Below the pieces are notes generated by a model. The model had not been told where the DNA came from. It did not search any database and saw nothing but the letters and a program-made list of their open reading frames with translations. From IMG/VR virus record IMGVR_UViG_2645727757_000001, positions 64,001 through 128,000 of that record: a stretch of 64,000 nt of DNA; one strand, written 5' to 3'. Source of the DNA: a virus (taxonomy: Duplodnaviria > Caudoviricetes). The translations under genes and the position numbers were made by a program. Below are positions 16,593 to 59,068 of the stretch, piece by piece (positions within the stretch are counted from its first letter, which is position 1; the number at the start of each line of letters is the position of its first letter).

Positions 16593-18191
<1,599 letters not shown>

Positions 18192-33868: not shown

Positions 33869-34159
33869 TTAAGAATCTTCTTTGTCTAATATTAAAAGAA
33901 TATCTCTTTCATTTAATATTAAATAATCTTTATTCTTAGTCTTTATTGGTGTACCTGCAAAATTGGTAAATACAACAGTATCTCCAACTTTAACTCTCAT
34001 AGGTATCTTTGTACCATTATCAGAAATTGCACCATCACCTACACAAGCAACTATTCCCTTATTAGTTTGTTTATCTTCTCTTCCTGGAATAATAACTCCA
34101 CCAATCTTTTCAGCTAATTTAATTTCTTCTACTAGAACTCTAGCTCCTATAACCTTCAT
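33869..34159 (-). CDS. groES: Co-chaperonin GroES
   Basis: RVLV, GGVIIP mobile loop, G.V.CVGDG, VKVGDTVVF..FAGT, YLILNERDIL. Confidence 0.95.
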   Translation of the reverse strand: MKVIGARVLVEEIKLAEKIGGVIIPGREDKQTNKGIVACVGDGAISDNGTKIPMRVKVGDTVVFTNFAGTPIKTKNKDYLILNERDILLILDKEDS

Positions 34160-35242: not shown

Positions 35243-35374
35243 CTATATTATACCATTATCTTTTGCTTTCTTTGCGAAATTAACAGTTCCTTTACTTATA
35301 AAATATGATAGCATTACTATTTTAAAACATACTATCGCTTCATAAGAAAAGAACCTTGAAAATAATGCTGTCAT
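35243..35374 (-). CDS. Small hydrophobic protein (~43 aa, not in ORF track)
   Basis: AGGAGG RBS; MTALFSRFFSYEAIVCFKIVMLSYFISKG... Confidence 0.45.
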   Translation of the reverse strand: MTALFSRFFSYEAIVCFKIVMLSYFISKGTVNFAKKAKDNGII

Positions 35375-35540
35375 AACTACCCTCCTAAATATTTCTTATA
35401 AAAGGCACGAACTCTGCTATTATTGTAAATAATTGTTTACTCATTAAGCATAAAAAGAAAAAGTCAACACCTAATGAAATTAAACCTTGTTTATATTCTT
35501 TTTCCATAATAAAAACCTCGCTACTAATTTTAATTATTTA

Positions 35541-35813
35541 TTATTTTAATATTGCATTCTTTACTGATTCTATTAAGCTGTCAACAACACCTTCTGTAGC
35601 CTTTCCTAAGTCTAATGATTCAAAAGCTCCACCAATATTACCTTTTAATACTAGTAGTGCATCTATAAAGTACATAGCTGTGCAAGAATAACCTGCAAGA
35701 CCTAATATAGATGCTATGCTCTTTTTACCTGCTGTTTCTATAACTTTTTTTGTAACAAAAGTAGTTCCAAACATTAAAACTACTTGTCCAAGTATTTTTC
35801 CTAATTGAGCCAT
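35541..35813 (-). CDS. SpoIIIAC/AD-like two-TM membrane protein (paralogue 5)
   Basis: TM-VIETAGKKSIASILGLAG-TM pattern. Confidence 0.5.
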   Translation of the reverse strand: MAQLGKILGQVVLMFGTTFVTKKVIETAGKKSIASILGLAGYSCTAMYFIDALLVLKGNIGGAFESLDLGKATEGVVDSLIESVKNAILK

Positions 35814-35865
35814 AATATTACCTCCAAAAAAATATAGCTAGTATTTAGCACTAGCTATATTATTA

Positions 35866-36051
35866 TTATAAACTAGAAAGTTTCTTTGCTAATGATGCAA
35901 CAGCAGAAACAGCAGTTCCACCCATTATAGAAATACCTAATACTTCTGTTAATTTAGCTTGACTACCTCTTCCAGAAGCTTCTAATACAACACTAACGAT
36001 TGTAGTTCCAAATCCAACACCTAACATAGTTACTATAGTTCCAATACCCAT
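35866..36051 (-). CDS. SpoIIIAC/AD-like two-TM membrane protein (paralogue 4)
   Basis: 61 aa: LGVGFGTTIVSVVLEASGRGSQAKLTEVLG resembles SpoIIIAC GxG...VL..xG+.xxA....L.G. Confidence 0.6.
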   Translation of the reverse strand: MGIGTIVTMLGVGFGTTIVSVVLEASGRGSQAKLTEVLGISIMGGTAVSAVASLAKKLSSL

Positions 36052-36108
36052 AATTTTATATCCTCCTCAATTTAAAAAGATTATTTTTATTTTAATTTTA
36101 ATATTAAT

Positions 36109-36297
36109 TTAAATAAGTTTCATAAGATTTTCAGCTAACAACAAAACTCCTGTAATTGTAGTACAAGCCATTATTACTATCCCTAATACTTCTGTTAGTT
36201 TTGCTTGATTATATTTGCCTAACGCTTCTAAAACAACACTAACTATTGTAGAGCTTATACCAATTCCAAGCATGGTTATTATAGTTTTTATACCCAT
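36109..36297 (-). CDS. SpoIIIAC/AD-like two-TM membrane protein (paralogue 3)
   Basis: Near-duplicate of 35866..36051 (TIVSVVLEA.G...QAKLTEVLGI). Confidence 0.6.
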   Translation of the reverse strand: MGIKTIITMLGIGISSTIVSVVLEALGKYNQAKLTEVLGIVIMACTTITGVLLLAENLMKLI

Positions 36298-36323
36298 ATA
36301 ACTCTCCCTTTAAAGTATGCTTA

Positions 36324-36500
36324 TTAAAGATTTCTTAACAGATGTGCAATACTGATAACGTAAGGAATCGCAACTAAAAATAATAAACCTACACCTATAG
36401 TCTCTGCTACTTTTGCTAAGAATTCCTCATCATATTTTCTTAATATTGTACCAAGATGTGCGATACCTGTACCAGCGGCAATAATTATTATTTTATTCAT
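36324..36500 (-). CDS. SpoIIIAC/AD-like two-TM membrane protein (paralogue 2; 58 aa, not in ORF track)
   Basis: AAGGAG RBS; MNKIIIIAAGTGIAHLGTILRKYDEEFLAKVAETIGVGLLFLVAIPYVISIAHLLRNL. Confidence 0.55.
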   Translation of the reverse strand: MNKIIIIAAGTGIAHLGTILRKYDEEFLAKVAETIGVGLLFLVAIPYVISIAHLLRNL

Positions 36501-36523
36501 AATTTTGCTCCTTTATTTAATTA

Positions 36524-36709
36524 TTAAAGTTTTATAAGTAGTTTTGTAATTGCACCAATGCTAATAAATGTAGCTACGCCTATCGTAGATAAGCTTGTAA
36601 CTCCTACTAACTTAGACAATGATTTCATATCATGTTGATCTAATGAATTACTAACTTGTGCGAGTATCATACTACTGCCGAGCATAATTATCATAGATTT
36701 TACAATCAT
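36524..36709 (-). CDS. SpoIIIAC/AD-like two-TM membrane protein (paralogue 1)
   Basis: 61 aa, same TM-loop-TM layout (IIMLG...LDQHDMKSLSKLVGV). Confidence 0.45.
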   Translation of the reverse strand: MIVKSMIIMLGSSMILAQVSNSLDQHDMKSLSKLVGVTSLSTIGVATFISIGAITKLLIKL

Positions 36710-36725
36710 AATTATCCCCCTTTAT

Positions 36726-37109
36726 TTAAATTAAATTTTTTTTAAGTTCTTTTATTGAACCTCCACTTTCTTTCGCAATTTCCATTGATGAACATACCAT
36801 ATTAAAAGCTGTTAAAACTCCTATAGAAACCGCAGCATTATATATGTCCTTCTCTGACATATAAGAAATGTTTTTCTTTAGTTTATCTCTTTTTAAATTA
36901 AGATTATCGGTATTTTTTAAAGACATTATCAATTTGTTTTTATCAATATTAACGTATTGTTCCTTTGAAATGTAAGCATTTAAAAAATCATTAGCTACGT
37001 TATCAATAACAGTACTTGTTACCTCACTAATGATGTCAAACAGTAAAATCTCTGTAGCAGACCTAAAATCTGAATCATTTGCTTCATTTTTTATCAAATC
37101 AAATTCCAT
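36726..37109 (-). CDS. Hypothetical protein
   Basis: 127 aa, GGAGG RBS. Confidence 0.6.
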   Translation of the reverse strand: MEFDLIKNEANDSDFRSATEILLFDIISEVTSTVIDNVANDFLNAYISKEQYVNIDKNKLIMSLKNTDNLNLKRDKLKKNISYMSEKDIYNAAVSIGVLTAFNMVCSSMEIAKESGGSIKELKKNLI

Positions 37110-37125
37110 AATAAATTCCTCCGAT

Positions 37126-37431
37126 TCAATTATTTTTATTTCTGAAAGATATTTTACCTTCTTGAACTAACTTGCGGAGATTATTATATTGATCTCCTAT
37201 CTCCTTATATTCTTTCTTTAATGGAGAAGAATTATTCAAGTTATTTTTCATTGAATCATCAGTAAACTTGCTCCTTGCAAGAGAATAGCTATATATTTCT
37301 TCTTTTTTCTTTTTAAACCATAAAAGATTTACTATATATTTAATCCAATTTGGTAGCAAATATATAAATAATTTACCTAATAAATATATAGCTATTAGTT
37401 GAAATATGATAGTTAATATGGAAATGACCAA
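37126..37431 (-). CDS. Membrane-anchored hypothetical protein
   Basis: N-terminal TM helix; AAGGAGG RBS. Confidence 0.6.
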   Translation of the reverse strand: MVISILTIIFQLIAIYLLGKLFIYLLPNWIKYIVNLLWFKKKKEEIYSYSLARSKFTDDSMKNNLNNSSPLKKEYKEIGDQYNNLRKLVQEGKISFRNKNN

Positions 37432-37744
37432 TATATCACCTCCTTGCTTTAGTATTTTTTATGATGGATTTCTTTTGTTGGGTATATTTACGATATACAA
37501 CGACATATCTATATAAGATATATAGATAATATGAAACATTAGTTTATATATAATAAACAATATTATATTAAGAACATATCATATGAATTACTAAACTAAT
37601 CACCTTGCGATAAACGATCAGCCTTCAATTGGCCTAGTCTAGCATACAGCATTAGAAGAGCAAGACACACAACATATCCATAATATATATTATTCATATA
37701 TATAGACAATATTTATACTACTAGATATAAATATTGATATGTAT

Positions 37745-37781
37745 AAAATAAGACCATTAAAAATTTAATGGTCTTATTTTT
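37745..37781. terminator. Bidirectional-type terminator after FtsK-like gene
   Basis: 17-bp inverted repeat aaaataagaccattaaa/tttaatggtcttatttt. Confidence 0.75.
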
Positions 37782-37785
37782 AAAA

Positions 37786-39363
37786 TTAATATCTTCTATA
37801 GGTATCTTTTATTCTATCTACATCTAAATCTATACTTATTTCAGAGTTATCGTTACTCTTTTTACTCTTAGTTTTCTTAGCTTTATCCTTTGATTTACCT
37901 TCAGTGTCTGATACAACTTCAACTTCTTTGTATTCTATTGCATTTATACTTTCTCCAATATCACCGCTATTTTCTTTTTCTATTTCATGGTACATTTCAA
38001 TTATCATTTTATCCATTTCATATTTTATTTTCTCTGCATTAGACTTTTTAGCTCCTGACTTATTATTAGGATCACTCTCATAAGCTTTTAATAAATCTTT
38101 TCTTAATTTTTGTCTTCTTTCAATCATATAATCTGATTTTCCAGGGATAAGATATTTTTGAATATTATTCTTTATATCTTCTGATGTTATCCAAGGTACT
38201 AATCCGTAACTTATGGTACTACCAAATTTATATGCAAATTCTCTTTGTTCTAATCTTAAAGCTAATTCTGGGTCATCAATAGCAACAGAACTTGATACAG
38301 CATTGTTTTGTCTAAAGGAAATAATCACTGTAGACTGGCTTTTGATGAATGGATCTAGGTTATCTTTAGTAGGTCTTTGAAGAGATACAATTAAGAATAC
38401 TCCAAGTGCTGCCCCGTATTGTGCGATACGTCTTATAAGCATATTTACTAAAGATTTATCATTTTTAAGTTCTTTGCTTTCTCCAGTACAAGCTTCATAT
38501 AAGGTTGATGCTTCATCAACAGCAACAATACAAGTTTTAATTTGGTCATTTGGATGTTGCTTATTGTAATCAACATAATTATCTCCTTTAAATGCCTTGT
38601 GCATAGGACGTATTTTCATTGTTCTTTCATTCATTTCACTAGCAATAATAAGTAAAGATTCTTTTATAGATTTAATATTATCTGCATATAAATTACAATG
38701 CGCCAAATCGGCGTATGGTTCTAAATCACTCTTTGAACCTTGAATAAGATTTAATTCAAGTTCTTCTGGAGTATAAAGTGATACTAAGTTTGTTATAATA
38801 CAATCTAACATCTTGGATTTTCCACTTCTGGTACCACCTGTCAATAAAATATGAGGTAATGTAAGCATATCAACAAATATAGGTTGACCAGAATAATCAT
38901 TTCCTAGATATAGGTTCCTAGGATTATTGTCTTTAGCTTTTAAAGGAGCTATAACTCTATATTTTAAATGTTCTTGTGTAGACATTATAAATTCTACTCT
39001 AACCATTCTTGAACGTTTATACCTATTTAATGTAACTAAACATCCTAAGCCATCTTGCAATTTTTCTTTTAACTCAACTAATTGAGTATAAGTTAAACCA
39101 GCAGTAAGGAAACATTCACTTTTATATCCATAGATAGTTTTTTCAGTAAAATTTAATCCATAAGTTTCGTAAAAATCATTTAAAGCACTTGAATTAACCA
39201 TTATTTTCATCCATTGTTCATGTAAATCTAAAATTGCTTTTTTCTCTTCTACACTTTTTAAGTATCTATCTATATATTTATTATTTTTCCTGCTAAATGG
39301 AATTCTTCTTAGCATTTCTGCAAATTTTTCATTATAAAATTTAGAATTTGATTTTTGATGCAT
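37786..39363 (-). CDS. FtsK/SpoIIIE-family ATPase
   Basis: PHILLTGGTRSGKS Walker A, EMNER, VAVDEA Walker B, LQRP. Confidence 0.85.
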   Translation of the reverse strand: MHQKSNSKFYNEKFAEMLRRIPFSRKNNKYIDRYLKSVEEKKAILDLHEQWMKIMVNSSALNDFYETYGLNFTEKTIYGYKSECFLTAGLTYTQLVELKEKLQDGLGCLVTLNRYKRSRMVRVEFIMSTQEHLKYRVIAPLKAKDNNPRNLYLGNDYSGQPIFVDMLTLPHILLTGGTRSGKSKMLDCIITNLVSLYTPEELELNLIQGSKSDLEPYADLAHCNLYADNIKSIKESLLIIASEMNERTMKIRPMHKAFKGDNYVDYNKQHPNDQIKTCIVAVDEASTLYEACTGESKELKNDKSLVNMLIRRIAQYGAALGVFLIVSLQRPTKDNLDPFIKSQSTVIISFRQNNAVSSSVAIDDPELALRLEQREFAYKFGSTISYGLVPWITSEDIKNNIQKYLIPGKSDYMIERRQKLRKDLLKAYESDPNNKSGAKKSNAEKIKYEMDKMIIEMYHEIEKENSGDIGESINAIEYKEVEVVSDTEGKSKDKAKKTKSKKSNDNSEISIDLDVDRIKDTYRRY

Positions 39364-39583
39364 TATTACTATCCTCCCTGCGCTTTTTAGAAGCTTGTAT
39401 AATTTTTCTACAATCCATAGATTTGTATTCTTTTACTTCTCTTATTTCATTTCCTTGTGCATCGTGTGAAATAACCTCAATTTTTGAAAAACCTTCTGTA
39501 TTTGTACCTTTCATAAGCATACAACCTACAATGCCACAACAAATTGTGCCACCAACCATTATTAATACATCGTTACTAATCAT
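39341..39583 (-). CDS. Small membrane-anchored protein
   Basis: N-terminal TM; overlaps the FtsK start. Confidence 0.6.
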   Translation of the reverse strand: MISNDVLIMVGGTICCGIVGCMLMKGTNTEGFSKIEVISHDAQGNEIREVKEYKSMDCRKIIQASKKRREDSNNASKIKF

Positions 39584-39641
39584 AAATTTCCCTCCTTAAA
39601 TAAAAAAAAGTTATGCACTTATCGGTACACAACTTCTTAAT

Positions 39642-40340
39642 TTATAAATATTTATTTATTTCACTAACTATATATGGAGCATAAAAATAAGCCTCAACTA
39701 ATAATATTTTTTTAAAAGTATCATTTAAATCTTTAAAGTTTACTTTATCAAAAATATTAATAACATCTATTTTGGGTAAATTAAAAAATGTATTAAAATC
39801 TAACCCGAAATAGTTCCAATTGGTTAAATTCATAAAATAACCAGATGGAAAAAACAATAAAGGAACAGGCTTAAAATTATCATAATAAAACTTTATATCT
39901 TTATCTTTATAATCTATAGTTTTATTATTTTTATCTCCAATGATAAAAAGAACATAATTTAAAAACTTATCTATATTGTTTATATCATAGTTGATACATT
40001 TATCAACCATATCTTGAAGTACTTTAATTTCACTAGATCCACTAGAAGTTTTTATGTTTTTTATTGAATACTTATGATTTTTAATAGCATCTATCCTGTC
40101 ATTTGTAATTTTATCAAAAGCTATTAATTGCTTAAAAAAGCAACCGTGATAACATAAAGATTTAAATGGTAATTCTTCAAATATGCAATTAACACCAAAC
40201 TTTCTTATATTATCATCATATATATCTAGTATCTTATCTCTAAAATTAACAAATCTAAAGTTATCTTTTCTTTTGACTATATTAATTTTAGATTCCATTA
40301 ATGAATTTAAGTCATCAAAGTTAATCTTTTTATCATCCAT
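39642..40340 (-). CDS. Hypothetical protein
   Basis: 232 aa, no motif recognised. Confidence 0.55.
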   Translation of the reverse strand: MDDKKINFDDLNSLMESKINIVKRKDNFRFVNFRDKILDIYDDNIRKFGVNCIFEELPFKSLCYHGCFFKQLIAFDKITNDRIDAIKNHKYSIKNIKTSSGSSEIKVLQDMVDKCINYDINNIDKFLNYVLFIIGDKNNKTIDYKDKDIKFYYDNFKPVPLLFFPSGYFMNLTNWNYFGLDFNTFFNLPKIDVINIFDKVNFKDLNDTFKKILLVEAYFYAPYIVSEINKYL

Positions 40341-40536
40341 ACACTATCATTCCCTTACTATTCTGTAATTAAATGGTAATATATATATGTTATTATGTCA
40401 ATTAGACATAGTATGTAAATAAAAGAAAGAAAAAGAGAAGAGATAATAATAAAACAATTAAATATCTCTTATAAACTCTTTTTAATTCTTAAACACTATT
40501 GAGCTAATGATAAAACAAAATTCTCAATAGTAAACC

Positions 40537-41034
40537 CTAAGAAACTTTAGAATCTTTTGCATTAATATTTTTCTTGTCATCTTTGTAATTTAAGTAAGAC
40601 ATATAATTTTCCTTAGCATATTTATAAAAATCAGATATACAACTATTACGATATACACCAGACTTTTTATAAGGCTTTTTTTGGAATTTATTGTTTGTCT
40701 GTTTCTTAGTGTTGTTTACATTAGCTTTTTTAAAATTTACGTTAGTATCTTTAACCTCGTTTTTATTATAATTAGAACTAAAGGTATTACTCATATTATC
40801 ATAATACTCTTGTTGATTCTTCTTATAATGTTTACCTTCTCTAGACTTAGCTACATAATAATTAAACTTATTACTAGCAAACTTATATCCTCTATTTCTT
40901 ATAAAGTTTCTTAAAGGATAAGGTACAAAACTAAGAGCTAAAGATGTCACAATTTTAGCAAGAACTAAAGTAATAACAGCAAATACTAAAACTACTAAGA
41001 TATTTCTAAAAATATTAAATATAAAATCCATCAT
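40537..41034 (-). CDS. Membrane-anchored basic hypothetical protein
   Basis: N-terminal TM, Lys/Asn-rich tail; AAGGAGG RBS. Confidence 0.6.
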   Translation of the reverse strand: MMDFIFNIFRNILVVLVFAVITLVLAKIVTSLALSFVPYPLRNFIRNRGYKFASNKFNYYVAKSREGKHYKKNQQEYYDNMSNTFSSNYNKNEVKDTNVNFKKANVNNTKKQTNNKFQKKPYKKSGVYRNSCISDFYKYAKENYMSYLNYKDDKKNINAKDSKVS

Positions 41035-41102
41035 AAAAATCCCTCCTTATCTTTAGTAGTATGTAAAAAGGATGTATCTGAAATCAAATACATCCATTAA
41101 TA

Positions 41103-42626
41103 TTAAGAATATGAAATAGATTTGGCTTTATTTTTAAATTTCTCTTCAAATCTACTTGTTTTCTTGACTTTGAATTTTTGTAAATTCTTATTAAAAATAT
41201 CATCATCAACTATGAAACTTCTTCCTGTATCTATACCATCTATATTTTCATAGACAAAAGTTCTTTTATTTACATCTAATGATATAGCTAGTTTTGCTGC
41301 TTCATCATTTCCTAAGGTAGTGTAAGCTGCTTCTTTGGTATTTTGTTTAAAGCATATTTTATTACATAAAAATCCTCTTAAACTAACACCAATAGAATCT
41401 TCACCAGCTCTTTGTGATAAAATAACAACATAAATTCCACTATTTCTTGCTTCTCTGCATAGTAAATTTAAAAGCTTATTATATTTCTTTTTCTTAGCTT
41501 TTATATCTGGAGAATCTGTATCATCTTCTTTGAAATTTGCAATTTCATCTATAATAAGCATTAATATAGGAAGTTTATTTTTTGCTATTTTATTATAGCT
41601 ATATATATTAGTTATATTTTCTTTACATTTGTTAAATAATGAATTTCTTATTTTGTGTTCATTCCTTAATCTCTCTAGTGATCCTATACATTTTTCTAAT
41701 GTTTCAGAATAAGAACAACATTGTTCTATATTTTTAAATGGTCTAAAATCTTGCTTATCAGTAAGCATATTGAAGAATAGACCTAATTTATCCTTGCCAT
41801 TTGAAAGACATGAGTTCATAAGTGCTGTCATTATAGCTATACTCTTTCCAGAACAAGGAATACCCCCAATTAAAGCATTAGGTAACTTTTTAAAATTTAA
41901 TATAATGTTCTTTTTAAAATTACCTAATCCAACACACAACTCATAAGGTTCAACCTTTACAGGTTTAAAATCATAATTAAAATTAACTTTTTGTTTTTCT
42001 ATATCTATAACAACTATATTTAAATCTTCATCCCATTTAATAATAGATTTTCCTAAAGATTTATCAATTAAATCTTTATGATTTTCTAGTACTTCATAAC
42101 TTAATCCTAGTGGTATATTAACTTTTAATCTATATCCAGCAACTTCTCCATCTACATAAATATCAGAAATATCTTCTATTTTATATGATTCTCCTATTAT
42201 ATTTCTAACTTTACTTTTATTTGAGAAAATTTTATCCCATATAAAATATATTTTTTCTTTATCATCTATAGGCAATTCATTTAAATGAACAATCATATTT
42301 GCAGATGTTTTATCTTTATTTAAAATAAATCTAACCTCTCCACCAAACGCTGATTCTATGCTAGATTGTAAAGATTTAAGGAAAGAAAAGTTTGTACCTT
42401 TTTTGAATTCTAAAGTGCTATCAAAACCATAAGACTTTATATCTATATCTGTTATTTCAAAAGTATCTTCTGATTTTCTATCAGTGCATCCTTTAATGAC
42501 ATCTTCCCATGATTCTTCTATTTTATTTTTTATCTTCAATGTTTTTCTAAAATCCTTAGTAAGATATGATATACCACAACACGCAATTCCTAAAAAGTAC
42601 AAACTAGCTAACATAATTTCATTCAC
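41103..42626 (-). CDS. FtsK/SpoIIIE-family ATPase with N-terminal TM and duplicated alpha/beta domain
   Basis: PNALIGGIPCSGKS, LIIDEIA, REARNSGI..I.SQR. Confidence 0.85.
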   Translation of the reverse strand: MNEIMLASLYFLGIACCGISYLTKDFRKTLKIKNKIEESWEDVIKGCTDRKSEDTFEITDIDIKSYGFDSTLEFKKGTNFSFLKSLQSSIESAFGGEVRFILNKDKTSANMIVHLNELPIDDKEKIYFIWDKIFSNKSKVRNIIGESYKIEDISDIYVDGEVAGYRLKVNIPLGLSYEVLENHKDLIDKSLGKSIIKWDEDLNIVVIDIEKQKVNFNYDFKPVKVEPYELCVGLGNFKKNIILNFKKLPNALIGGIPCSGKSIAIMTALMNSCLSNGKDKLGLFFNMLTDKQDFRPFKNIEQCCSYSETLEKCIGSLERLRNEHKIRNSLFNKCKENITNIYSYNKIAKNKLPILMLIIDEIANFKEDDTDSPDIKAKKKKYNKLLNLLCREARNSGIYVVILSQRAGEDSIGVSLRGFLCNKICFKQNTKEAAYTTLGNDEAAKLAISLDVNKRTFVYENIDGIDTGRSFIVDDDIFNKNLQKFKVKKTSRFEEKFKNKAKSISYS

Positions 42627-42852
42627 CTCTGGCTTTCTTAATTTTTATACCTATAATTTCAGTAATAATTAAAACAGAACCTATAGAAATAGTTGCAATA
42701 GATAAAGGATCAAGTGAACTTAACTTAGAAATAGCAATAGTATCAACATTATTTAAAACTTTAATAGCTAAAGGAGCAGAAACAGCTCCAATAGCCATAC
42801 ATTTTAAACTAGTACTAGGTTTATCTTTATAATAATCAACTAATTTACTCAT
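42619..42852 (-). CDS. Small two-TM membrane protein
   Basis: Two hydrophobic segments; overlaps the FtsK start. Confidence 0.6.
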   Translation of the reverse strand: MSKLVDYYKDKPSTSLKCMAIGAVSAPLAIKVLNNVDTIAISKLSSLDPLSIATISIGSVLIITEIIGIKIKKARGE

Positions 42853-42992
42853 TATATTGATTTCCTCCTATTCTTATATTGATTATCGTCATAGATATTT
42901 ACTAACTTTCCAGTTGAATCATCTATAACATCACTTTCTACATCACTTGAATATTTATTATAAATATCATCTATATAGTATTTATTTTTCAT
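42852..42992 (-). CDS. Small acidic protein (46 aa, not in ORF track)
   Basis: AGGAG RBS; MKNKYYIDDIYNKYSSDVESDVIDD...; overlaps both neighbours. Confidence 0.5.
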   Translation of the reverse strand: MKNKYYIDDIYNKYSSDVESDVIDDSTGKLVNIYDDNQYKNRRKSI

Positions 42993-43248
42993 TTTTCTCT
43001 TCTCCTGCGGCTAGTATCATACTTGCAGCTCCACCACAGAATACTGTAAAGTATGCTATAGTCATTCCAATTAATGAAGGTTGAGTTGATTGTGCTACAC
43101 TTGTATTTGCTATACATTCAAGAGTTTTATTGTTAAGTTGCATAAATGCGGGTATTATTACTGGAGAAAGTATTGTTCCACCTAATAGCATATTCATTCC
43201 ATTTCTAACGCTCTTTCTATTTGAATATTTTTCTAATAAATTTGTCAT
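42982..43248 (-). CDS. Small two-TM membrane protein
   Basis: Two hydrophobic segments; AAGGAGG RBS. Confidence 0.6.
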   Translation of the reverse strand: MTNLLEKYSNRKSVRNGMNMLLGGTILSPVIIPAFMQLNNKTLECIANTSVAQSTQPSLIGMTIAYFTVFCGGAASMILAAGEEKNEK

Positions 43249-43262
43249 TTTAAAAATCCTCC

Positions 43263-43607
43263 TTATGATAAAATATCTATAAAATCTTGACCTATAGAAA
43301 TATAAAGTTTTATTATATCTGCAACTTTAGGGAATATAGCAACTAAAAGTTTGTTATATTTAACTAAGAAATCAACAATTATTTCTTCATCTAAACTAAT
43401 AGAACAAGAATCATCATCTAAATATTCAATATCTAGATTTTCAATAACATCATCAACAAAGTTATTTAATTCTTCTTTTAAACTATTTTCATCTGTAGAA
43501 TCATCAATAGATTTGCTTAAATTAATAGAACCATCCTTTATAGAATCAAAAACCTTCATAAATTCAATACCTTCATTTTTACTAATTATAATTTTCATTA
43601 CCTTCAC
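43263..43607 (-). CDS. Hypothetical acidic protein
   Basis: 114 aa. Confidence 0.55.
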   Translation of the reverse strand: MKVMKIIISKNEGIEFMKVFDSIKDGSINLSKSIDDSTDENSLKEELNNFVDDVIENLDIEYLDDDSCSISLDEEIIVDFLVKYNKLLVAIFPKVADIIKLYISIGQDFIDILS

Positions 43608-43641
43608 CTCAATTAAAATTTAAATTTATAATAAAAACTTT

Positions 43642-44166
43642 TTAATAAATGAAATTTGGAACAATTTCAACGTATTTTTCTGGTTTATTGTTAGTTGCAT
43701 ATATAGAATCTCCACACCATAAACCATTTAATGGAGCATTAAAACCACAATATTCGTATCTATAATCATCATCCATAGTTGATGTAAGAAGTGGAAGAGG
43801 ATGTATAGTTAAACCATTTCTACACTTAGGACATTTAGTAAGATCAATATAATAAGCACAAGTATCATTAACAAGATATCTAAAATTATTTCCTGGGTTT
43901 TCATAGAATTCTAAATCTTTATAACTAGCTGATTCTATAAATAAATTAATACCTTTATCATTTGTGAATAATCCTTTCATAGCATAATCTCCACACCAAA
44001 TAATTTTATCCTTATACCAAGGTCCATCTTCTCCTATAAGCTCCATAACTCTGTTCATAAAAGGATTGTTTATAAAAGAGTGTTCAAAGAATTTAGTTCC
44101 ATCATCAAGATTTGATTGCATAACTTCCTTTTTAGTTAAATTTACCACTTTAAAATATTGTCCCAT
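43642..44166 (-). CDS. Conserved phage hypothetical protein
   Basis: MGQYF..VNL...W..D.I.W.GDY...IHPLPLLT...G.W.GD. Confidence 0.65.
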   Translation of the reverse strand: MGQYFKVVNLTKKEVMQSNLDDGTKFFEHSFINNPFMNRVMELIGEDGPWYKDKIIWCGDYAMKGLFTNDKGINLFIESASYKDLEFYENPGNNFRYLVNDTCAYYIDLTKCPKCRNGLTIHPLPLLTSTMDDDYRYEYCGFNAPLNGLWCGDSIYATNNKPEKYVEIVPNFIY

Positions 44167-44224
44167 AAAAATATTCCCTCCTAAAAAATAAGGAAGCTAC
44201 ATAAGTAGCCTCCTAAAATTATTA

Positions 44225-44929
44225 TTATTCTATACAAGTTTTATTCAAAGTTAACATACTTACTATAGCTTTAGCTACGTGACATATTAAAGTTATACCT
44301 TTAGTTAATATTAAACCTAGTATTTCTATAACTGTAAAAGTAACATCTTTAACAGCATCTATTACAATGCCTAATGTATCACCTATTGTACCTAAAACCT
44401 TGGATGCGAAACCTTTTGCGAGTTTCTTTTGTGGTACCTTAAAGTTCTTACTAAGCTCATAAGATTTCTTTGAATAGTAACCAGATTTCATGTAATTTTG
44501 TAACTTCTCTAAGAATTTTCTTGATTTTTTGGCTTCCTCCTTAGTGATATTTGGATCTTCTTCAACCTCAATCATTTCTACTTCTTCAAGAATATCATTA
44601 ACATCTTTTTTATTTTCTTTATCGTTAATATTTTTATTTTCTTTATTCTTTGTATCTGTATTTGCTTTAACAACATCTTCTTTATTTTCCTTAACCTTAT
44701 CTTCTTTTTGTTCAACTTCTTCATCCTCTTCTGTATATGAATATTCATCTAAGGTATTTTTATCTGTAGGGTTTTTCTTAGAAGAAACTTTCTTTTCTTT
44801 ACCTCCTTCATCCATTACTAGATTTGTAGATTCAACATTGACATATTCAGAATCGGATGATACAACTTCTGTAGTTGAAGTAATATCATCTTCGCCTAAA
44901 TCAACAACATTGTCTAATTTAATCTTCAT
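44225..44929 (-). CDS. Acidic protein with C-terminal amphipathic/hydrophobic helices
   Basis: Glu/Asp-rich N-terminus; GTIGDTLGIVIDAVKDVTFTVIEILGLIL C-terminus. Confidence 0.6.
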   Translation of the reverse strand: MKIKLDNVVDLGEDDITSTTEVVSSDSEYVNVESTNLVMDEGGKEKKVSSKKNPTDKNTLDEYSYTEEDEEVEQKEDKVKENKEDVVKANTDTKNKENKNINDKENKKDVNDILEEVEMIEVEEDPNITKEEAKKSRKFLEKLQNYMKSGYYSKKSYELSKNFKVPQKKLAKGFASKVLGTIGDTLGIVIDAVKDVTFTVIEILGLILTKGITLICHVAKAIVSMLTLNKTCIE

Positions 44930-44999
44930 ATTAATTTCCTCCTTATTGTTATATATAAAAAAAGAAGCTGAAAAATTCAGCTCCTAATTTATCTAATAT

Positions 45000-45377
45000 T
45001 TAATTATCCATATCTATATCACCATTGGTTTCAATGACAACCTCTTCTTTAATATCTGTATTGTTATTATCTTTAACCTCAATATTATTATCTATATCAT
45101 CTATAATATCTTTTTCTTTGATTCCATTTTCTTCAACTTCATTTGTATCTATATCTTTTATTGGAATAGTAGATGTTTCTGATAAATACATTCCATTTTT
45201 AATATTATCTTCTTCTTCTATTCTATTTACTTCGTATCCTATAGAATCAAGATATTTTGTTACTGCAATTTTAACTAATTTTGATGGTGAAATCATAGGG
45301 TTTTCTTCAAGATAATGAAAAATCCTTGAATTTTTCTTTCTTGTTATTGAAGCACCTATATATTTTTTATCTTGCAT
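45000..45377 (-). CDS. Putative ParR-like adaptor (RHH-like N-terminus, acidic tail)
   Basis: Immediately downstream of the ParM-like gene; YIGASIT...IFHYL...SKLVKIAVTKYL. Confidence 0.55.
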   Translation of the reverse strand: MQDKKYIGASITRKKNSRIFHYLEENPMISPSKLVKIAVTKYLDSIGYEVNRIEEEDNIKNGMYLSETSTIPIKDIDTNEVEENGIKEKDIIDDIDNNIEVKDNNNTDIKEEVVIETNGDIDMDN

Positions 45378-45400
45378 AAACTTTTTCTCCTTCCAAATGA

Positions 45401-46417
45401 TTATTCTTCTGAATCATCTTTTGTATCAAAACCTTCAAATGTTACTTTTGCGGCTCTTTCATATGCTAAGGCATTTGAGAATTGTGGATTTTTCTCTACA
45501 ATAATATCCTCTTGGTCAATTCCATTAGCTTCCATTACATAAGGTTTAAGAAGTGCAGCACAACCACCTATAAGATATAATTTATCTGCCATTAAGTCAA
45601 AATTATTCTTTTCAAGTTCTGCTTTTATTCTATTAACAAAGTCTAGTAATATATTATCTACATCTTTTGATATATCAATAGTTCCTTGACCAATTCTTTT
45701 GAATTTCTTGTTTAATAAAAGTTTAACAGCATCATCTGTAGTCACATTTCTAAACTTATGTTTATTTGTTAAAATAGTCTTGAAATTTGTAAGTAAAGCT
45801 TCAAAACCCAAGTCATTAAAAGTAAATACATTTCCATTCTTATAGAACTTTCCGTCTATAAGTTCCCATTTACCTGCATCAAAAGTACCTCCACCAAAGT
45901 CATATACAATACAACAAGTATTTTCTTTAGAGATTATTGCAGATTGTGGTTCGACTATGGCATCCTCTACTGTTAAGGCATATTGTATTCCATCTAGTTC
46001 AACAGGCATATTTTTGATTTTTAATGCTGATTGTCTACATTCTTCTTTACAATCATCAAATTGCTCTAATGGTGTACCAAGACCAATTTTAGCTCTTATG
46101 TCTATAGGCATATCTCTTAATGTTTTTTTAGGATTATCTTTTAAAAATTTCTTTTGTGCTGATCTTATTATAGCTGTACAAAGAGTAGCAGTATAAATAT
46201 CTTTTTCGTATTTTGTAGGTCCTGTAAATGAAGAACCTTCTTCATCACCTACTTTATATTCCTTACCGTCTATAATTACATCATAGCTGTTTCTTATATG
46301 GCTTGTACCATATCTGTTTGACACATAAGACAGAAATCTAACACCTCTTGATGTTTTAGTATAAGCGTTACCAATATCAACGCCTAAAATGATTCTAAAG
46401 ATTTTTTTTGCTCCCAT
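45401..46417 (-). CDS. parM: ParM/StbA-family actin-like partition ATPase
   Basis: GVDIGNAYTK (phosphate 1), DFGGGTFD (phosphate 2), IGGCA, PQFSNA. Confidence 0.85.
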   Translation of the reverse strand: MGAKKIFRIILGVDIGNAYTKTSRGVRFLSYVSNRYGTSHIRNSYDVIIDGKEYKVGDEEGSSFTGPTKYEKDIYTATLCTAIIRSAQKKFLKDNPKKTLRDMPIDIRAKIGLGTPLEQFDDCKEECRQSALKIKNMPVELDGIQYALTVEDAIVEPQSAIISKENTCCIVYDFGGGTFDAGKWELIDGKFYKNGNVFTFNDLGFEALLTNFKTILTNKHKFRNVTTDDAVKLLLNKKFKRIGQGTIDISKDVDNILLDFVNRIKAELEKNNFDLMADKLYLIGGCAALLKPYVMEANGIDQEDIIVEKNPQFSNALAYERAAKVTFEGFDTKDDSEE

Positions 46418-46439
46418 GTTGTTCCTCCTAATTATTACT

Positions 46440-46635
46440 AATATTATTTCACTATCTTTTTACAAATTTAGTGAAATATATGTATATATCTATAATTATC
46501 TACAAATATAATACTATATTTATATATAATTATTCAACTATAAATATATAAAAATAAAAATATATGTAACTATATACATATATAAATATATAAAATTATA
46601 TACTTATATATGTATAGAATTATATATATTGAAAT
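46440..46635. repeat. AT-rich repeat tract, candidate parC centromere/promoter
   Basis: Nearly all A/T; tatatgta x3 and tataaatatataaaa x2; directly upstream of parM. Confidence 0.45.
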
Positions 46636-46706: not shown

Positions 46707-47498
46707 TTATTCAAGTTCTGTATCACCATTAGTACTTAAATCATCAACAAGCTCTGATTCTTCTTGTTCCTCTTGTTCTTCGAATTTATAATTAGAATTC
46801 ATTTCTTCATTTAATTTAGTAGCTTCTTCAAAATTTCCCTCTTCAAGCATTTTTTGAATTTTATCAGTAATATCTTCTGAATTTTCTTCTATTCCTTTTT
46901 CAGAAGTTATTTCTTTATTAGTTTCATCAGTTTCTTTTACTACATTAGCATTAACTAATTGATCTGCATTTATCTCTTCACTTTCATCAAGTAATACAGC
47001 ATCAGTAACTACAATAGCATCAGATTTCTTGTTCTTAATGTTTTCTGGAGTTGCATCAGCAAATTCTATATCAGATACAGAAAGTCTAGTATTTTCATAT
47101 CTAATTGGTTGTTCAAATGAACATTTAATGTTACGTGGTTTTCCGTCAATTTCTATTTGAAGTACTTTTTCTATTGTAACTTTACTTTCAGTTTTGTATT
47201 TTTCGATATTTCCATGAACAACTATTCTTCTTGAAATAAATTTATCTTCTTCATCATAAATATTAAAGTTCTTATCAATAATCTTAGCTAAGTTACCATA
47301 TGCACAGCAGTTCATAAAGTCAGAATCTTTGACTTTCTTAGTTTCACCATTTTCATCTACTACAGTTCTTAAGTAATTTCTATCAGTTGCAATAGTAAAG
47401 TTAATAACGTATGATGGATTTTTACCTTCCTTATTAGCGTTTAAATCTCTTAATTTCCCACATTTTACTGTTCTTGCGAATGCTGAAGTTTTTAACAT
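46707..47498 (-). CDS. SSB-like OB-fold protein with long acidic tail
   Basis: FTIATDR...DFMNCCAYG..A; paralogue of 51679..52206. Confidence 0.75.
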   Translation of the reverse strand: MLKTSAFARTVKCGKLRDLNANKEGKNPSYVINFTIATDRNYLRTVVDENGETKKVKDSDFMNCCAYGNLAKIIDKNFNIYDEEDKFISRRIVVHGNIEKYKTESKVTIEKVLQIEIDGKPRNIKCSFEQPIRYENTRLSVSDIEFADATPENIKNKKSDAIVVTDAVLLDESEEINADQLVNANVVKETDETNKEITSEKGIEENSEDITDKIQKMLEEGNFEEATKLNEEMNSNYKFEEQEEQEESELVDDLSTNGDTELE

Positions 47499-58964: not shown

Positions 58965-59068
58965 AATTTTAACACTCCTTTTATTCAAATCATAATTTTT
59001 ATAAAGCACTTAGTAATAAAGCAATAAAAAAGAGGAAGCCAATTTTTTTGACTTCCACTTAGTAAAAC

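What the first reader, a model, noticed from the sequence alone, without database searches (positions are those of the whole stretch)
35243..46635. Five tandem SpoIIIAC/AD-like peptides with two FtsK/SpoIIIE ATPases and ParMR: candidate spore-access / DNA-transfer module
Seen: five consecutive 58-90-aa two-TM ORFs (35541-36709, one missed by the ORF track), two of them near duplicates. They share a TM-[VL.xxG+xxxA.L...G]-TM layout. They lie downstream of two FtsK-type ATPases, each preceded by small membrane proteins, and a ParM/ParR pair. Established: SpoIIIAC/AD are small membrane subunits of the mother-cell/forespore SpoIIIA-SpoIIQ complex, and SpoIIIE pumps DNA into the forespore. Inference: the element encodes its own septal translocase/channel, or SpoIIIA mimics, to route its genome into spores or modulate sporulation. 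Alternatively these are pilin-like subunits of a minimal conjugation system; no relaxase or VirB4 was recognised here.
Basis: partly seen in the sequence, partly recalled or inferred. Interest (0 to 1): 0.8.

Follow-up and report, generated by a model that had tools for sequence, protein, structure and literature searches.

The report
SpoIIIAC-like peptides beside phage-plasmid DNA pumps
A 185-kb plasmid-like phage of a spore-forming Clostridium carries relatives of a small sporulation-channel protein (SpoIIIAC) next to two DNA-pump ATPases, a pairing that recurs in related elements and hints at an untested way of handling the element's DNA at a membrane, perhaps during spore formation.

Summary
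The window is part of Clostridium baratii plasmid pCBJ, a myovirus-type phage-plasmid. The five tandem small ORFs, two FtsK-type ATPases and ParM/ParR are all there.

Three of the five peptides (p3, p4, p5) are true but divergent SpoIIIAC homologues:
- profile-profile probability 96% against 4.6% for a reversed control;
- a profile built from phage-plasmid peptides pulled genuine SpoIIIAC out of 1.84 billion proteins;
- that kind of profile hit exactly the chromosomal spoIIIAC in 87 of 399 Clostridia genomes.

p1 and p2 are not detectably related.

The family (about 97 clusters, short and long forms) follows an FtsK-like gene in 12 of 12 c-st-like loci. A second, SpoIIIAC-closer peptide sits directly upstream of the FtsK-like gene in a C. 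estertheticum phage-plasmid clade.

The ATPases resemble the conjugation coupling protein TcpA. Relatives add a winged-helix, nuclease-like Replic_Relax (MOBC-type) protein; pCBJ has none.

Best reading (confidence 0.4): membrane partners of an element-encoded DNA translocase. No expression, binding or phenotype data exist. The spore-delivery idea stays speculative.

The parts
46474..46630 (.). AT-rich direct and inverted repeats upstream of parM; candidate parC-like centromere
   Evidence: families D1, I1, I2; function inferred from position only
45401..46417 (-). ParM/Alp-type actin-like partition ATPase
   Evidence: ALP_N 42.8 bits (cut-off 26.3), ParM_N 28.8 bits (cut-off 27.4); phrog_691 E 6.9e-29
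45000..45377 (-). ParR-like adaptor (weak); terminator-like site follows at 44985-44963
   Evidence: NF010497 ParR E 1.3e-3, 18.8 bits, far below the cut-off of 140; position behind parM
44225..44929 (-). 234-aa acidic protein with two C-terminal hydrophobic segments; own terminator-like site
   Evidence: no family match
42982..43248 (-). 88-aa small membrane protein (two hydrophobic segments) upstream of FtsK2
   Evidence: no family match
42619..42852 (-). 77-aa small membrane protein directly upstream of FtsK2, overlapping its start
41103..42626 (-). FtsK2: FtsK/TcpA-like ATPase with one N-terminal hydrophobic segment; terminator-like site at 41095-41070
   Evidence: PF01580 27.8 bits; phrog_1358 E 2.7e-41; its only PDB matches are the three sequences of TcpA (6o1w-6o1z), 258 aa, E 1.5e-5
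40537..41034 (-). 165-aa protein: N-terminal TM plus basic tail (31 K+R against 11 D+E). It is homologous to the 100-aa TM protein that lies between the wHTH gene and the peptides in relative L010
   Evidence: (32% over 65 aa, pairwise E 2e-5)
39642..40340 (-). 232-aa protein of unknown fold; only 2 homologues found
   Evidence: AF2 model pLDDT 47, unusable; not like the wHTH/Replic_Relax proteins
39341..39583 (-). 80-aa protein with one TM, overlapping the FtsK1 start by 23 nt; likely a separately encoded membrane anchor
   Evidence: c-st, pNPD1_1 and L010 have a 57-65-aa one-TM ORF at the same place
37786..39363 (-). FtsK1: FtsK/TcpA-like ATPase without a TM segment of its own
   Evidence: PF01580 74.9 bits; phrog_1358 E 1.5e-55; FtsK and EccC chains around Walker A, TcpA over 232 aa (E 4e-9); closest relative L010, 38% identity
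37560..37700 (-). Structured, relatively G+C-rich intergenic element between FtsK1 and the 101-aa gene; an AT-rich hairpin lies just after the FtsK1 stop (about 37745-37780)
   Evidence: sequence; MFE -38.1 kcal/mol, z -2.91; no Rfam match there
37126..37431 (-). 101-aa protein: N-terminal TM plus basic tail. Same architecture as the 165-aa protein but no detectable similarity
36726..37109 (-). 127-aa soluble protein of unknown function, directly upstream of the peptides
   Evidence: no match
36524..36709 (-). p1, 61-aa two-segment hydrophobic peptide; not a demonstrable SpoIIIAC-family member
36324..36500 (-). p2, 58-aa two-segment hydrophobic peptide; only a faint SpoIIIAC match
   Evidence: PF06686 E 1.8e-3, 18.8 bits, below 24; not significant
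36109..36297 (-). p3, 62-aa short-form SpoIIIAC-family hairpin peptide
35866..36051 (-). p4, 61-aa short-form SpoIIIAC-family hairpin peptide (RefSeq: SpoIIIAC/SpoIIIAD family protein)
   Evidence: (37-39% identical to chromosomal SpoIIIAC over 54 aa)
35831..35861 (-). Terminator-like hairpin between p4 and p5
35541..35813 (-). p5, 90-aa long-form family member: hairpin core plus a tail of about 35 aa
   Evidence: long-form profile without pCBJ sequences, E 1.8e-11

Best explanation
pCBJ is a plasmid-maintained tailed phage. Next to its ParMR partition genes it carries an accessory membrane module.

Components of the module:
- two TcpA/FtsK-type motor ATPases, each with separately encoded small membrane anchors;
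- one-TM proteins with basic tails;
- hairpin peptides descended from the sporulation protein SpoIIIAC (two short forms, p3 and p4, and one long form, p5), plus two unrelated small hydrophobic peptides (p1, p2).

Proposed mechanism (inferred). The SpoIIIAC-derived hairpins assemble in the membrane as the platform or conduit part of an element-encoded DNA-handling machine, and the FtsK-like hexamers are its motors. In relatives a winged-helix plus nuclease-like (Replic_Relax/MOBC-type) protein would pick and perhaps nick the element's DNA; pCBJ has lost or replaced that part. The purpose would be to hold or move the plasmid-prophage DNA at or across a membrane. Given the SpoIIIAC ancestry and the exclusively clostridial hosts seen so far, that most likely means at the sporulation septum or the forespore membranes.

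Shown: gene content, homology and recurrent synteny. Inferred: assembly, partnership with the ATPase, DNA as substrate, and the link to sporulation.
For: Homology of p3, p4 and p5 to SpoIIIAC:
- hhalign of the phage-plasmid peptide family against 34 chromosomal Clostridiaceae SpoIIIAC gives probability 96%, P 4.7e-9, columns 5-59 on 5-59. The reversed control gives 4.6%. For scale, SpoIIIAC against the two halves of SpoIIIAD gives 83-88%.
- A profile of phage-plasmid peptides only found 114 clusters at E<=1e-3 among 1.84 billion representatives.
- Of the 113 scanned, 30 match PF06686 (best E 1.1e-20) and no other family matches more than 2.
- A short-form profile hit exactly one place in 87 of 399 Clostridia genomes. 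For the three genomes I compared (G031, G001, G014) that place is the spoIIIAC position found with PF06686.
- p4 is 37-39% identical to chromosomal SpoIIIAC over 54 aa.

Link to the ATPase:
- 12 of 12 c-st-like IMG/VR loci, about four distinct lineages, have the order FtsK-like, wHTH, short peptide, long peptide.
- Six loci of a C. estertheticum phage-plasmid clade have a bona fide PF06686 peptide (40.1 bits, cut-off 24) directly upstream of the FtsK-like gene, behind a one-TM ORF.
- The two peptide types grouped together in only 2 of 100 NJ bootstraps. That fits two separate recruitments of a SpoIIIAC relative to the same ATPase.

Motor type: both ATPases align with TcpA over the motor domain. 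FtsK1 has no TM segment of its own, so it needs membrane partners if it acts at a membrane.

Rarity outside these elements: in 37 of 41 Clostridiaceae genomes the PF06686 matches are the three of the spoIIIA operon. The only further match was one sub-threshold hit (19.9 bits) in one genome.
Against: - No direct evidence of expression, assembly or binding.
- The loci were found through the FtsK-like gene, so the synteny count is biased. The genomic context of the roughly 97 family clusters from metagenomes is unknown; my attempts to fetch it failed.
- 25 other loci with the FtsK-like gene (24 of them also with the wHTH gene) carry no such peptide. Five of those loci are cut at or near the FtsK start and so cannot be judged. 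The motor therefore does not need the peptides in general.
- No fusion of the hairpin to an ATPase was seen among the 114 hits; the longest hit is 135 aa.
- In c-st-like loci about 1 kb separates the wHTH gene from the peptides. In pCBJ an AT-rich hairpin follows FtsK1. The peptides may therefore be a separate transcription unit.
- pCBJ lacks the wHTH/nuclease partner altogether.
- p1 and p2 are not family members.
- Monophyly of the family has weak support (27 of 100).
Confidence: 0.4

Rival explanations
1. SpoIIIA mimics. The peptides insert into the host's mother-cell SpoIIIA-SpoIIQ complex in place of, or beside, SpoIIIAC/AD. They thereby tune, block or exploit sporulation for the phage, independently of the neighbouring ATPases.
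For: The peptides descend from SpoIIIAC. SpoIIIA proteins including SpoIIIAD form one membrane complex (PMC2703783, passages read). The C. estertheticum-type copy is 38-47% identical to chromosomal SpoIIIAC over its full length, close enough to compete for the same partners. All hosts seen are Clostridium.
Against: This reading does not explain why two different SpoIIIAC-derived lineages both sit beside the same FtsK-like gene. The p3/p4/p5 type is divergent (Pfam 17-20 bits, below the cut-off of 24). No sporulation-type promoter evidence. No phenotype data.
Confidence: 0.2
2. Conjugative mobilisation module. The FtsK-like protein is a TcpA-type coupling protein and, in relatives, the Replic_Relax protein is a MOBC-type relaxase. 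[quoted passage not shown] The peptides would be accessory membrane parts or unrelated.
For: TcpA is the only PDB match of FtsK2 and matches the motor domain of FtsK1 over 232 aa. PF13814 is filed as Rel_PF13814/MobC (PMC5357655, table passage) and as a PD-(D/E)XK family usually fused to HTH (PMC3424549, abstract and passages). The c-st protein folds with pLDDT 90 into an N-terminal winged helix (Z 9.6, rmsd 2.2 over 71 residues) and a C-terminal domain whose weak Foldseek matches are nearly all PD-(D/E)XK nucleases. Invariant H, D and E residues are seen in 24 sequences. Small C. perfringens plasmids with ftsK-like genes were suggested to be mobilisable (PMC10210947, passage).
Against: pCBJ has no Replic_Relax-like gene. 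PLSDB types it, and the relatives whose typing I saw, as non-mobilizable. No VirB4 is annotated in the roughly 141 kb of the record that I read. The peptide family was not found in 399 Clostridia genomes apart from spoIIIAC itself, although conjugative elements are common there (recalled). The same FtsK plus Replic_Relax pair sits in many non-plasmid Bacillus and Geobacillus phages, where another role, such as replication, is possible.
Confidence: 0.15
3. Unrelated small membrane proteins, for example holin-, antiholin-, exclusion- or toxin-like peptides. In this reading their position near the ATPases is an accident of phage accessory-gene packing.
For: p1 and p2 have no family. The upstream part of the array is replaced by unlike sequence in relatives from four sequencing runs, and in one run by about 200 fewer letters, as expected for fast-evolving accessory genes. 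The C. estertheticum peptide has a faint holin match (PF16079, E 0.018).
Against: Among 113 family representatives no holin, pilin or bacteriocin family matched; every family other than PF06686 matched at most 2 members. pCBJ has an annotated holin and amidase elsewhere. The short-plus-long pair is conserved behind the FtsK-like gene in 12 of 12 c-st-like loci. There is no PADLOC system: only FtsK-domain matches to SspH and mad8.
Confidence: 0.15

Closest known systems
SpoIIIAC (and SpoIIIAD) of the spoIIIA operon of endospore formers, Pfam PF06686 / TIGR02848
   Same: Size (about 61-65 aa), hairpin layout and the conserved loop with G-K followed by A. p4 is 37-39% identical to Clostridiaceae SpoIIIAC. 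Profile-level homology. A short and a long form side by side recalls SpoIIIAC plus the double-domain SpoIIIAD (PMC7924749, passage).
   Different: Encoded on a phage-plasmid, not in a spoIIIA operon. Below the curated thresholds (17-20 bits against 24; 20-22 bits against 56.65). The long form adds a tail rather than a second hairpin. Neighbours are FtsK/TcpA-like ATPases instead of SpoIIIAA/AB/AE.
TcpA, the FtsK-like coupling protein of Clostridium perfringens plasmid pCW3 (PDB 6o1w-6o1z)
   Same: Alignment over the whole motor domain (232 and 258 residues). Clostridial mobile element. Small membrane proteins are encoded nearby. That TcpD and TcpE are such proteins in pCW3 is recalled, not tested.
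   Different: No Tcp-type secretion genes (VirB4-like TcpF, TcpH, TcpC) are annotated in the parts of pCBJ that I read. FtsK1 lacks N-terminal TM helices. The element is a tailed phage.
FtsK/SpoIIIE plus replication-relaxation operon of Bacillus and Geobacillus temperate phages and phage-plasmids (e.g. RBClin15, PMC11526630; Geobacillus phage PK5.1)
   Same: The same gene pair, FtsK-like followed by a protein of about 200 aa (wHTH, Replic_Relax type), is present in the relatives of pCBJ.
   Different: pCBJ has two ATPases and no Replic_Relax gene. The Bacillus, Geobacillus and C. perfringens phage loci that I scanned (0 of 3) have no SpoIIIAC-like peptide.
Clostridium phage c-st, genes CST192-CST197 (annotated hypothetical)
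   Same: Same module order: one-TM ORF, FtsK-like, wHTH, TM protein with basic tail, short peptide, long peptide. A plasmid-maintained large phage of a toxigenic Clostridium.
   Different: c-st has one ATPase, one short and one long peptide, a Replic_Relax-like gene and an FtsZ-like gene close by (that it is the TubZ-type partition GTPase is recalled). pCBJ has two ATPases, extra small peptides, no Replic_Relax gene and ParM/ParR partition.
Phage modules of a TcpA-like ATPase with small membrane proteins and a PD-(D/E)XK nuclease, noted earlier in this scan in cyanophages and actinophages (e1-3727169, e1-3670264, e1-3273346)
   Same: A tailed phage carrying a non-packaging FtsK/TcpA-like motor with small membrane partners and, in relatives, a PD-(D/E)XK-type protein.
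   Different: Those notes are unchecked AI notes on other genomes. None mentions SpoIIIAC-like peptides (the word was met in no finding).

Membership tests
SpoIIIAC/SpoIIIAD family (PF06686, TIGR02848) | Score above the curated threshold of the family model | tested here: not met
   p4 20 bits, p2 18.8, p3 17.1 (cut-off 24), p1 and p5 no match.: TIGR02848 22 and 20.6 bits (cut-off 56.65). Sub-threshold PF06686 matches also occur in control genomes such as E. coli. The C. estertheticum-type peptide does pass (40.1 bits).
SpoIIIAC/SpoIIIAD family (PF06686, TIGR02848) | Homology to genuine chromosomal SpoIIIAC by profile methods with controls | tested here: met
   Met for p3, p4 and p5 and for the family as a whole: 96% against 4.6% for the reversed control; 30 of 113 hits are PF06686; a single hit, at spoIIIAC where checked, in 87 of 399 genomes. 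In one search p3, p4 and p5 reach 97%, 98% and 70% against the short-form family profile, but only 56%, 52% and 32% against the SpoIIIAC alignment. Not met for p1 and p2 (5-6% against the family profile).
SpoIIIAC/SpoIIIAD family (PF06686, TIGR02848) | Hairpin of about 65 aa with two hydrophobic helices and a conserved G-K loop | tested here: met
   (the G is nearly invariant in 113 sequences). p3, p4 and p5 keep the loop G and a basic residue after it (R in p4). p1 and p2 lack it. p5 is only moderately hydrophobic.
SpoIIIAC/SpoIIIAD family (PF06686, TIGR02848) | [quoted passage not shown] | tested here: not met
   Genomic context is a phage-plasmid beside FtsK-like genes. Function in the complex is not testable with these tools.
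FtsK/SpoIIIE family, TcpA-type coupling proteins | FtsK_SpoIIIE motor domain above threshold, with Walker A and B | tested here: met
   (74.9 and 27.8 bits, cut-off 24). GxxxxGKS and hhhhDE motifs read from the translations. Invariant G, K, D and E columns.
FtsK/SpoIIIE family, TcpA-type coupling proteins | N-terminal transmembrane anchor in the same polypeptide | tested here: inconclusive
   FtsK2 has one N-terminal segment and FtsK1 none, but an 80-aa one-TM ORF overlaps the FtsK1 start.
FtsK/SpoIIIE family, TcpA-type coupling proteins | C-terminal gamma (winged-helix, DNA-sequence-reading) domain of FtsK/SpoIIIE proper | tested here: not met
   no second Pfam domain at E<=0.01. The C-terminal 120 residues of FtsK1 are low-complexity K/E/S-rich sequence.
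Conjugation or mobilisation system (coupling protein + relaxase + type IV secretion) | A relaxase (here MOBC / PF13814-type) on the element | tested here: not met
   a custom HMM of 37 wHTH proteins finds nothing in the whole 185-kb record at E<=0.1.: no match in the cluster. Relatives do carry the gene (PF13814 at 33.2 bits, cut-off 25.3, in C. perfringens p4).
Conjugation or mobilisation system (coupling protein + relaxase + type IV secretion) | VirB4-type ATPase and mating-pore genes | tested here: inconclusive
   None is annotated in record positions 1-100000 and 130246-171638. PLSDB types the record as non-mobilizable. About 44 kb of the record was not read and no VirB4 profile was run.
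ParMRC partition system | Actin-like ParM, a small adaptor gene downstream, a repeat centromere upstream | tested here: met
   ParM is firm. The adaptor rests on position and a weak ParR match. The repeats are present but AT-rich in an AT-rich genome.
Phage holins | Match to a holin family, position in the lysis cassette | tested here: not met
   No holin family for the pCBJ peptides. At most 2 of 113 family members match any family other than PF06686. The annotated holin and amidase lie about 43 kb away around the 185-kb circle.

The most novel reading that the evidence does not exclude
Clostridial phage-plasmids use a SpoIIIAC-derived adaptor to dock a TcpA-type DNA pump onto, or to build it beside, the mother-cell SpoIIIA-SpoIIQ channel. 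In relatives a MOBC-type nickase would serve as pilot. The prophage genome would then be 'conjugated' from the mother cell into the forespore, which would guarantee inheritance through spores. pCBJ, with two pumps and extra peptide copies, would be an elaborated version.
Probability: 0.1. Interest if true: 0.9.

Novelty: new variant of a known kind. Interest (0 to 1): 0.6.

Why it matters
SpoIIIAC and SpoIIIAD are conserved, essential-for-sporulation membrane proteins, and how they act remains unknown (recalled). PMC2703783 places SpoIIIAD in the complex and draws SpoIIIAC in its model without assigning either a role; I read passages only.

A mobile-element branch of this family (about 97 clusters), recruited at least once and probably twice next to a TcpA-type DNA motor, offers a second, simpler context in which to ask what such hairpins do.

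It also gives a concrete, testable idea for how low-copy plasmid-prophages of spore formers deal with membranes and septa. Such elements include those of toxigenic clostridia.

If the peptides work with the ATPase, they define a new kind of small membrane partner for FtsK-like motors. If they act on the host SpoIIIA complex, they are a new class of phage sporulation modulators.

Tried and rejected
- DNA and protein look-ups. Megablast of the region against phages found nothing. tblastn with p4 found only pCBJ itself among plasmids and nothing among phages.
- Locus fetching. The search for related loci with single FtsK1, with the 7-sequence FtsK alignment, with the short-peptide alignment, with one family member in viral and in metagenome contigs and with the c-st-type FtsK alignment in genome contigs gave nothing. 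The context of most family members therefore stays unknown.
- Naming of ten family clusters: nine carry no name and one a generic membrane-protein name.
No binding test was made.
- RNA evidence: no RNA holder listed.
- Sigma-E-type -10 motif CATACANT (consensus recalled): 11 matches against 12.2 expected, none on the coding strand in the cluster.
- Sigma-70-like sites are not enriched: 87 against 93 expected.
- Rfam: only one sub-threshold match, caiA RNA, 31.5 bits against 55.5, at 44927-44993.
- The 232-aa protein: ESM Atlas best score 0.76, within noise. Only 2 homologues. AF2 model pLDDT 47, not searched further.
- No protein of the cluster resembles the wHTH/Replic_Relax proteins; the best is the ParR-like protein at 12.9%.
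- The 101-aa TM protein shows no similarity to the L010 TM protein.
- PADLOC: no defence system.
- Tree programs could not be loaded. My own NJ bootstrap resolves little: 27 of 100 for family monophyly.
- Foldseek against the PDB gave no match at E<=1e-3 for the c-st wHTH protein. The VIA-align list is filled by the N-terminal winged helix, so the C-terminal nuclease-like domain was barely tested.
- Rejected readings: a type VII secretion system, because only ATPase-domain similarity to EssC/EccC exists, far below the cut-offs; and an artefact of ORF calling, because p3, p4 and p5 have dozens of conserved relatives.

Full report
**What the window is.** Region 35243-46635 is 100% identical to Clostridium baratii str. 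Sullivan plasmid pCBJ (NZ_CP006906.1, 185,364 bp, circular). All genes of the region lie on the minus strand and G+C is about 26%. The record carries a holin, an amidase, a tail sheath, a baseplate J protein and very large structural-looking genes. The window holds phage-type replication genes: a split DNA polymerase III alpha, primase, helicase, GroEL/GroES and SbcCD-like proteins. IMG/VR lists the record as a virus. pCBJ is therefore a plasmid-maintained tailed phage, a phage-plasmid. It has no close DNA relative among deposited phages.

**The observation.** The five small ORFs are real and consecutive: p1 36524-36709, p2 36324-36500, p3 36109-36297, p4 35866-36051 and p5 35541-35813. RefSeq annotates all five, and p4 as 'SpoIIIAC/SpoIIIAD family protein'.
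- Upstream in transcription order lie a 127-aa soluble protein, a 101-aa protein with one TM segment and a basic tail, and a 350-bp gap.
- Then comes FtsK1 (PF01580, 74.9 bits) with an overlapping 80-aa one-TM ORF.
- Next are a 232-aa protein and a 165-aa protein with one TM segment and a basic tail.
- Then FtsK2 (27.8 bits, one N-terminal hydrophobic segment), preceded by 77-, 46- and 88-aa ORFs.
- Three more genes follow, and then ParR-like and ParM with AT-rich repeats upstream.
- Terminator-like hairpins are enriched: 12 found against 1.9 expected. They split the region into units ending at 44985-44963, 44214-44191, 41095-41070, 39638-39605, 35861-35831 (between p4 and p5) and 35017-34990. 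An AT-rich hairpin also follows the FtsK1 stop.

**Are the peptides SpoIIIAC-like?** The curated models give only sub-threshold matches: PF06686 at 17-20 bits against a cut-off of 24 for p2, p3 and p4, and TIGR02848 at 20-22 bits against 56.65. Such weak matches also occur in E. coli and other controls. I therefore tested homology in other ways.
1. I collected 34 chromosomal SpoIIIAC and 33 SpoIIIAD proteins from Clostridiaceae genomes. In 37 of 41 genomes PF06686 matches at 34-74 bits: three matches in 36 of them (AC plus the two halves of AD), and in one genome a fourth, sub-threshold match (19.9 bits) on another contig.
2. hhalign of the phage-plasmid peptide family against the SpoIIIAC alignment gave probability 96%, P 4.7e-9, in register over 55 columns. 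The reversed alignment gave 4.6%. SpoIIIAC against the two SpoIIIAD halves, an accepted relationship, gave 83-88%.
3. A profile made only of phage-plasmid peptides, searched against 1.84 billion representatives, found 114 clusters at E<=1e-3. Of the 113 scanned with Pfam, 30 match PF06686 (best E 1.1e-20) and no other family matches more than 2. By my own HMMs, 16 are SpoIIIAC proper and 97 belong to the phage-plasmid type, which comes in a short form of 60-66 aa and a long form of 70-105 aa.
4. A short-form profile without any pCBJ sequence hit exactly one place in each of 87 of 399 Clostridia genomes. For the three genomes I compared, it is the spoIIIAC position.
5. p4 is 37-39% identical to chromosomal SpoIIIAC over 54 residues.

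The homology does not extend to p1 and p2. With profiles free of pCBJ sequences, p4, p3 and p5 stand out among 923 ORFs of the record (E 1.4e-12, 1.2e-11, and 8.5e-6 or 1.8e-11). p1 and p2 do not (E 0.94 and 4.5). hhalign gives them 5-6%. They resemble only each other.

**Surroundings in relatives.** The closest FtsK1 relatives are on large Clostridium phage-plasmids: an IMG/VR contig of 194 kb (38% identity), C. botulinum pNPD1_1-type plasmids, phage c-st and group III elements.
- All 12 IMG/VR loci of this kind, about four distinct lineages, share the order: one-TM ORF, FtsK-like, a protein of about 200 aa, a gap of about 1 kb, a TM protein with a basic tail, short peptide, long peptide.
- The pCBJ 165-aa protein is homologous to that TM protein.
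- A second group of 36-60-kb Clostridium phage-plasmids and prophage-like contigs has the FtsK-like gene followed by the 160-200-aa protein.
- Within that group, one clade of six loci, including C. estertheticum pCM034-51, has a peptide that passes PF06686 (40.1 bits). It is 38-47% identical to chromosomal SpoIIIAC and is inserted between the one-TM ORF and the FtsK-like gene.
- The other 25 loci with an FtsK match have no such peptide. Five of them are cut at the FtsK start.
- Three phages of Bacillus, Geobacillus and C. perfringens with FtsK-like genes have none.
- In a neighbour-joining analysis the C. estertheticum-type peptides grouped with the phage-plasmid family in only 2 of 100 bootstraps. 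The tree is otherwise poorly resolved, with family monophyly at 27 of 100.

Two separate recruitments of a SpoIIIAC relative beside the same ATPase are therefore likely but not proven.

**The ATPases and their missing partner.** FtsK2 matches only TcpA, the coupling protein of the conjugative plasmid pCW3, among solved structures (258 residues). FtsK1 matches FtsK and EccC around Walker A, and TcpA over 232 residues.
- The roughly 200-aa neighbour in relatives matches Pfam Replic_Relax weakly or, in C. perfringens p4, above threshold.
- Its c-st member folds confidently (pLDDT 90.2) into an N-terminal winged helix (Z 9.6, rmsd 2.2 A over 71 residues).
- Its C-terminal domain has only weak Foldseek matches, but nearly all of them are PD-(D/E)XK nucleases. 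Invariant H, D and E residues are seen.
- This agrees with the assignment of Replic_Relax to that superfamily (PMC3424549, abstract and passages). CONJscan files the family as MOBC relaxases (PMC5357655, one table passage).
- An FtsK/SpoIIIE plus replication-relaxation operon has been noted in a Bacillus phage-plasmid without a tested function (PMC11526630, one passage).
- pCBJ has no such gene anywhere, and none of its cluster proteins resembles it.

**How it most likely works.**

*Shown:*
- gene content;
- the SpoIIIAC ancestry of p3, p4 and p5;
- the TcpA-like nature of the ATPases;
- recurrent linkage of the two in clostridial phage-plasmids;
- rarity of the peptides elsewhere.

*Inferred:*
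- the hairpins form the membrane platform of an element-encoded DNA-handling machine driven by the FtsK-like motors;
- one-TM anchors and basic-tailed TM proteins are further parts;
- in relatives a site-specific wHTH/nuclease selects the DNA.

The ancestry from a protein of the mother-cell to forespore channel, and the clostridial host range, point to sporulation as the setting. SpoIIIA proteins form one membrane complex (PMC2703783, passages). Nothing here shows timing or substrate.

I put 0.4 on the partnership-with-the-motor reading, 0.2 on SpoIIIA mimicry independent of the motors, 0.15 on conjugative mobilisation and 0.15 on unrelated small membrane functions.

**Results against my reading.**
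- The synteny sample was drawn through the ATPase gene.
- The context of most family members could not be fetched.
- Many FtsK plus wHTH loci lack the peptides.
- No fusion proteins exist among the 114 hits; the longest is 135 aa.
- The peptides may be transcribed apart from the ATPase.
- No RNA data were available.

**Natural variation.** Contigs from four public runs of four studies carry relatives roughly 85-93% identical over p5, p4, the 127-aa and 101-aa genes and FtsK1. The stretch from about 36167 to 36719 (the first half of p3, plus p2 and p1) is replaced by unlike sequence of similar length. In one run it is replaced by about 200 fewer letters. The upstream small peptides therefore turn over fast and may vary in number. 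These are contigs at a threshold of 80% likeness, so this is a description, not a count of alleles.

**Novelty and literature.**
- Nine papers in the library hold both 'SpoIIIAC' and 'phage'. From titles and abstract starts, none concerns a phage- or plasmid-encoded SpoIIIAC. I read passages of one of them only, from a different listing.
- Six papers hold SpoIIIAC, SpoIIIAD, SpoIIIAE and 'channel'. I read passages of two of them.
- No supplements were consulted.
- NCBI's pipeline already names p4 and the C. estertheticum peptide as family members, so the bare resemblance is on record.
- As far as these searches show, three things are not on record: a populated mobile-element branch of the family with short and long forms, its linkage to TcpA-like ATPases, and its expansion in pCBJ.
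- Earlier notes of this scan describe TcpA-like motors with small membrane proteins and PD-(D/E)XK nucleases in phages of filamentous cyanobacteria and actinobacteria. I did not test those notes.
- I rate this a new variant of a known kind, interest 0.6.

Noticed in passing
window 21849-26232: The DNA polymerase III alpha gene is in two pieces: a PHP-domain N-terminal part at 25114-26232 and the polymerase part at 21849-24140. An HNH endonuclease gene (24273-24926) lies between them and another HNH gene at 26252-26701. It looks like a homing-endonuclease-split polymerase.
   Followed up: no
window 18259-20757: A UvsX/RecA-like recombinase is also split: the N-terminal part at 20275-20757 and the C-terminal part at 18259-18996, with an endonuclease gene (19206-20204, phrog_4645) between them.
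   Followed up: no
window 16593-18191 and 33869-34159: Phage-encoded GroEL and GroES homologues lie about 16 kb apart.
   Followed up: no
window 21078-21551, 46707-47498, 51679-52206: Three single-strand-binding-protein paralogues occur in one window. The 263-aa copy next to parM has a long acidic tail.
   Followed up: no
window 37560-37700 (minus strand): A relatively G+C-rich intergenic stretch between FtsK1 and the 101-aa gene folds better than shuffles (MFE -38.1 kcal/mol, z -2.91) and matches no Rfam family. It could be a leader, a small RNA or a DNA site such as an origin of transfer.
   Followed up: partly
window about 36167-36719: In relatives from four sequencing runs this part of the peptide array is replaced by unlike sequence. 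In one run the replacement is about 200 letters shorter, while both flanks are conserved.
   Followed up: partly
window 4734-5585: An ArdA-like anti-restriction protein (phrog_7245, E 6.1e-68) lies in the early/replication region.
   Followed up: no
window 54780-59009: A 1409-aa ORF has no PHROG match at E<=1e-5. RefSeq calls it hypothetical.
   Followed up: no
L010 12168-13549; L003 6028-7368: In the c-st-like relatives an FtsZ-like GTPase gene with a small DNA-binding-like or regulator gene next to it lies close to the FtsK/peptide module. pCBJ has ParM/ParR instead, so the partition system is swapped while the module is kept. The TubZ/TubR naming is recalled, not tested.
   Followed up: no
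L007 8834-9217, L008 8739-9134, L009 9434-9841: A membrane-bound 'metal-dependent hydrolase' gene follows the FtsK-like plus wHTH pair in three small Clostridium phage-plasmids.
   Followed up: no
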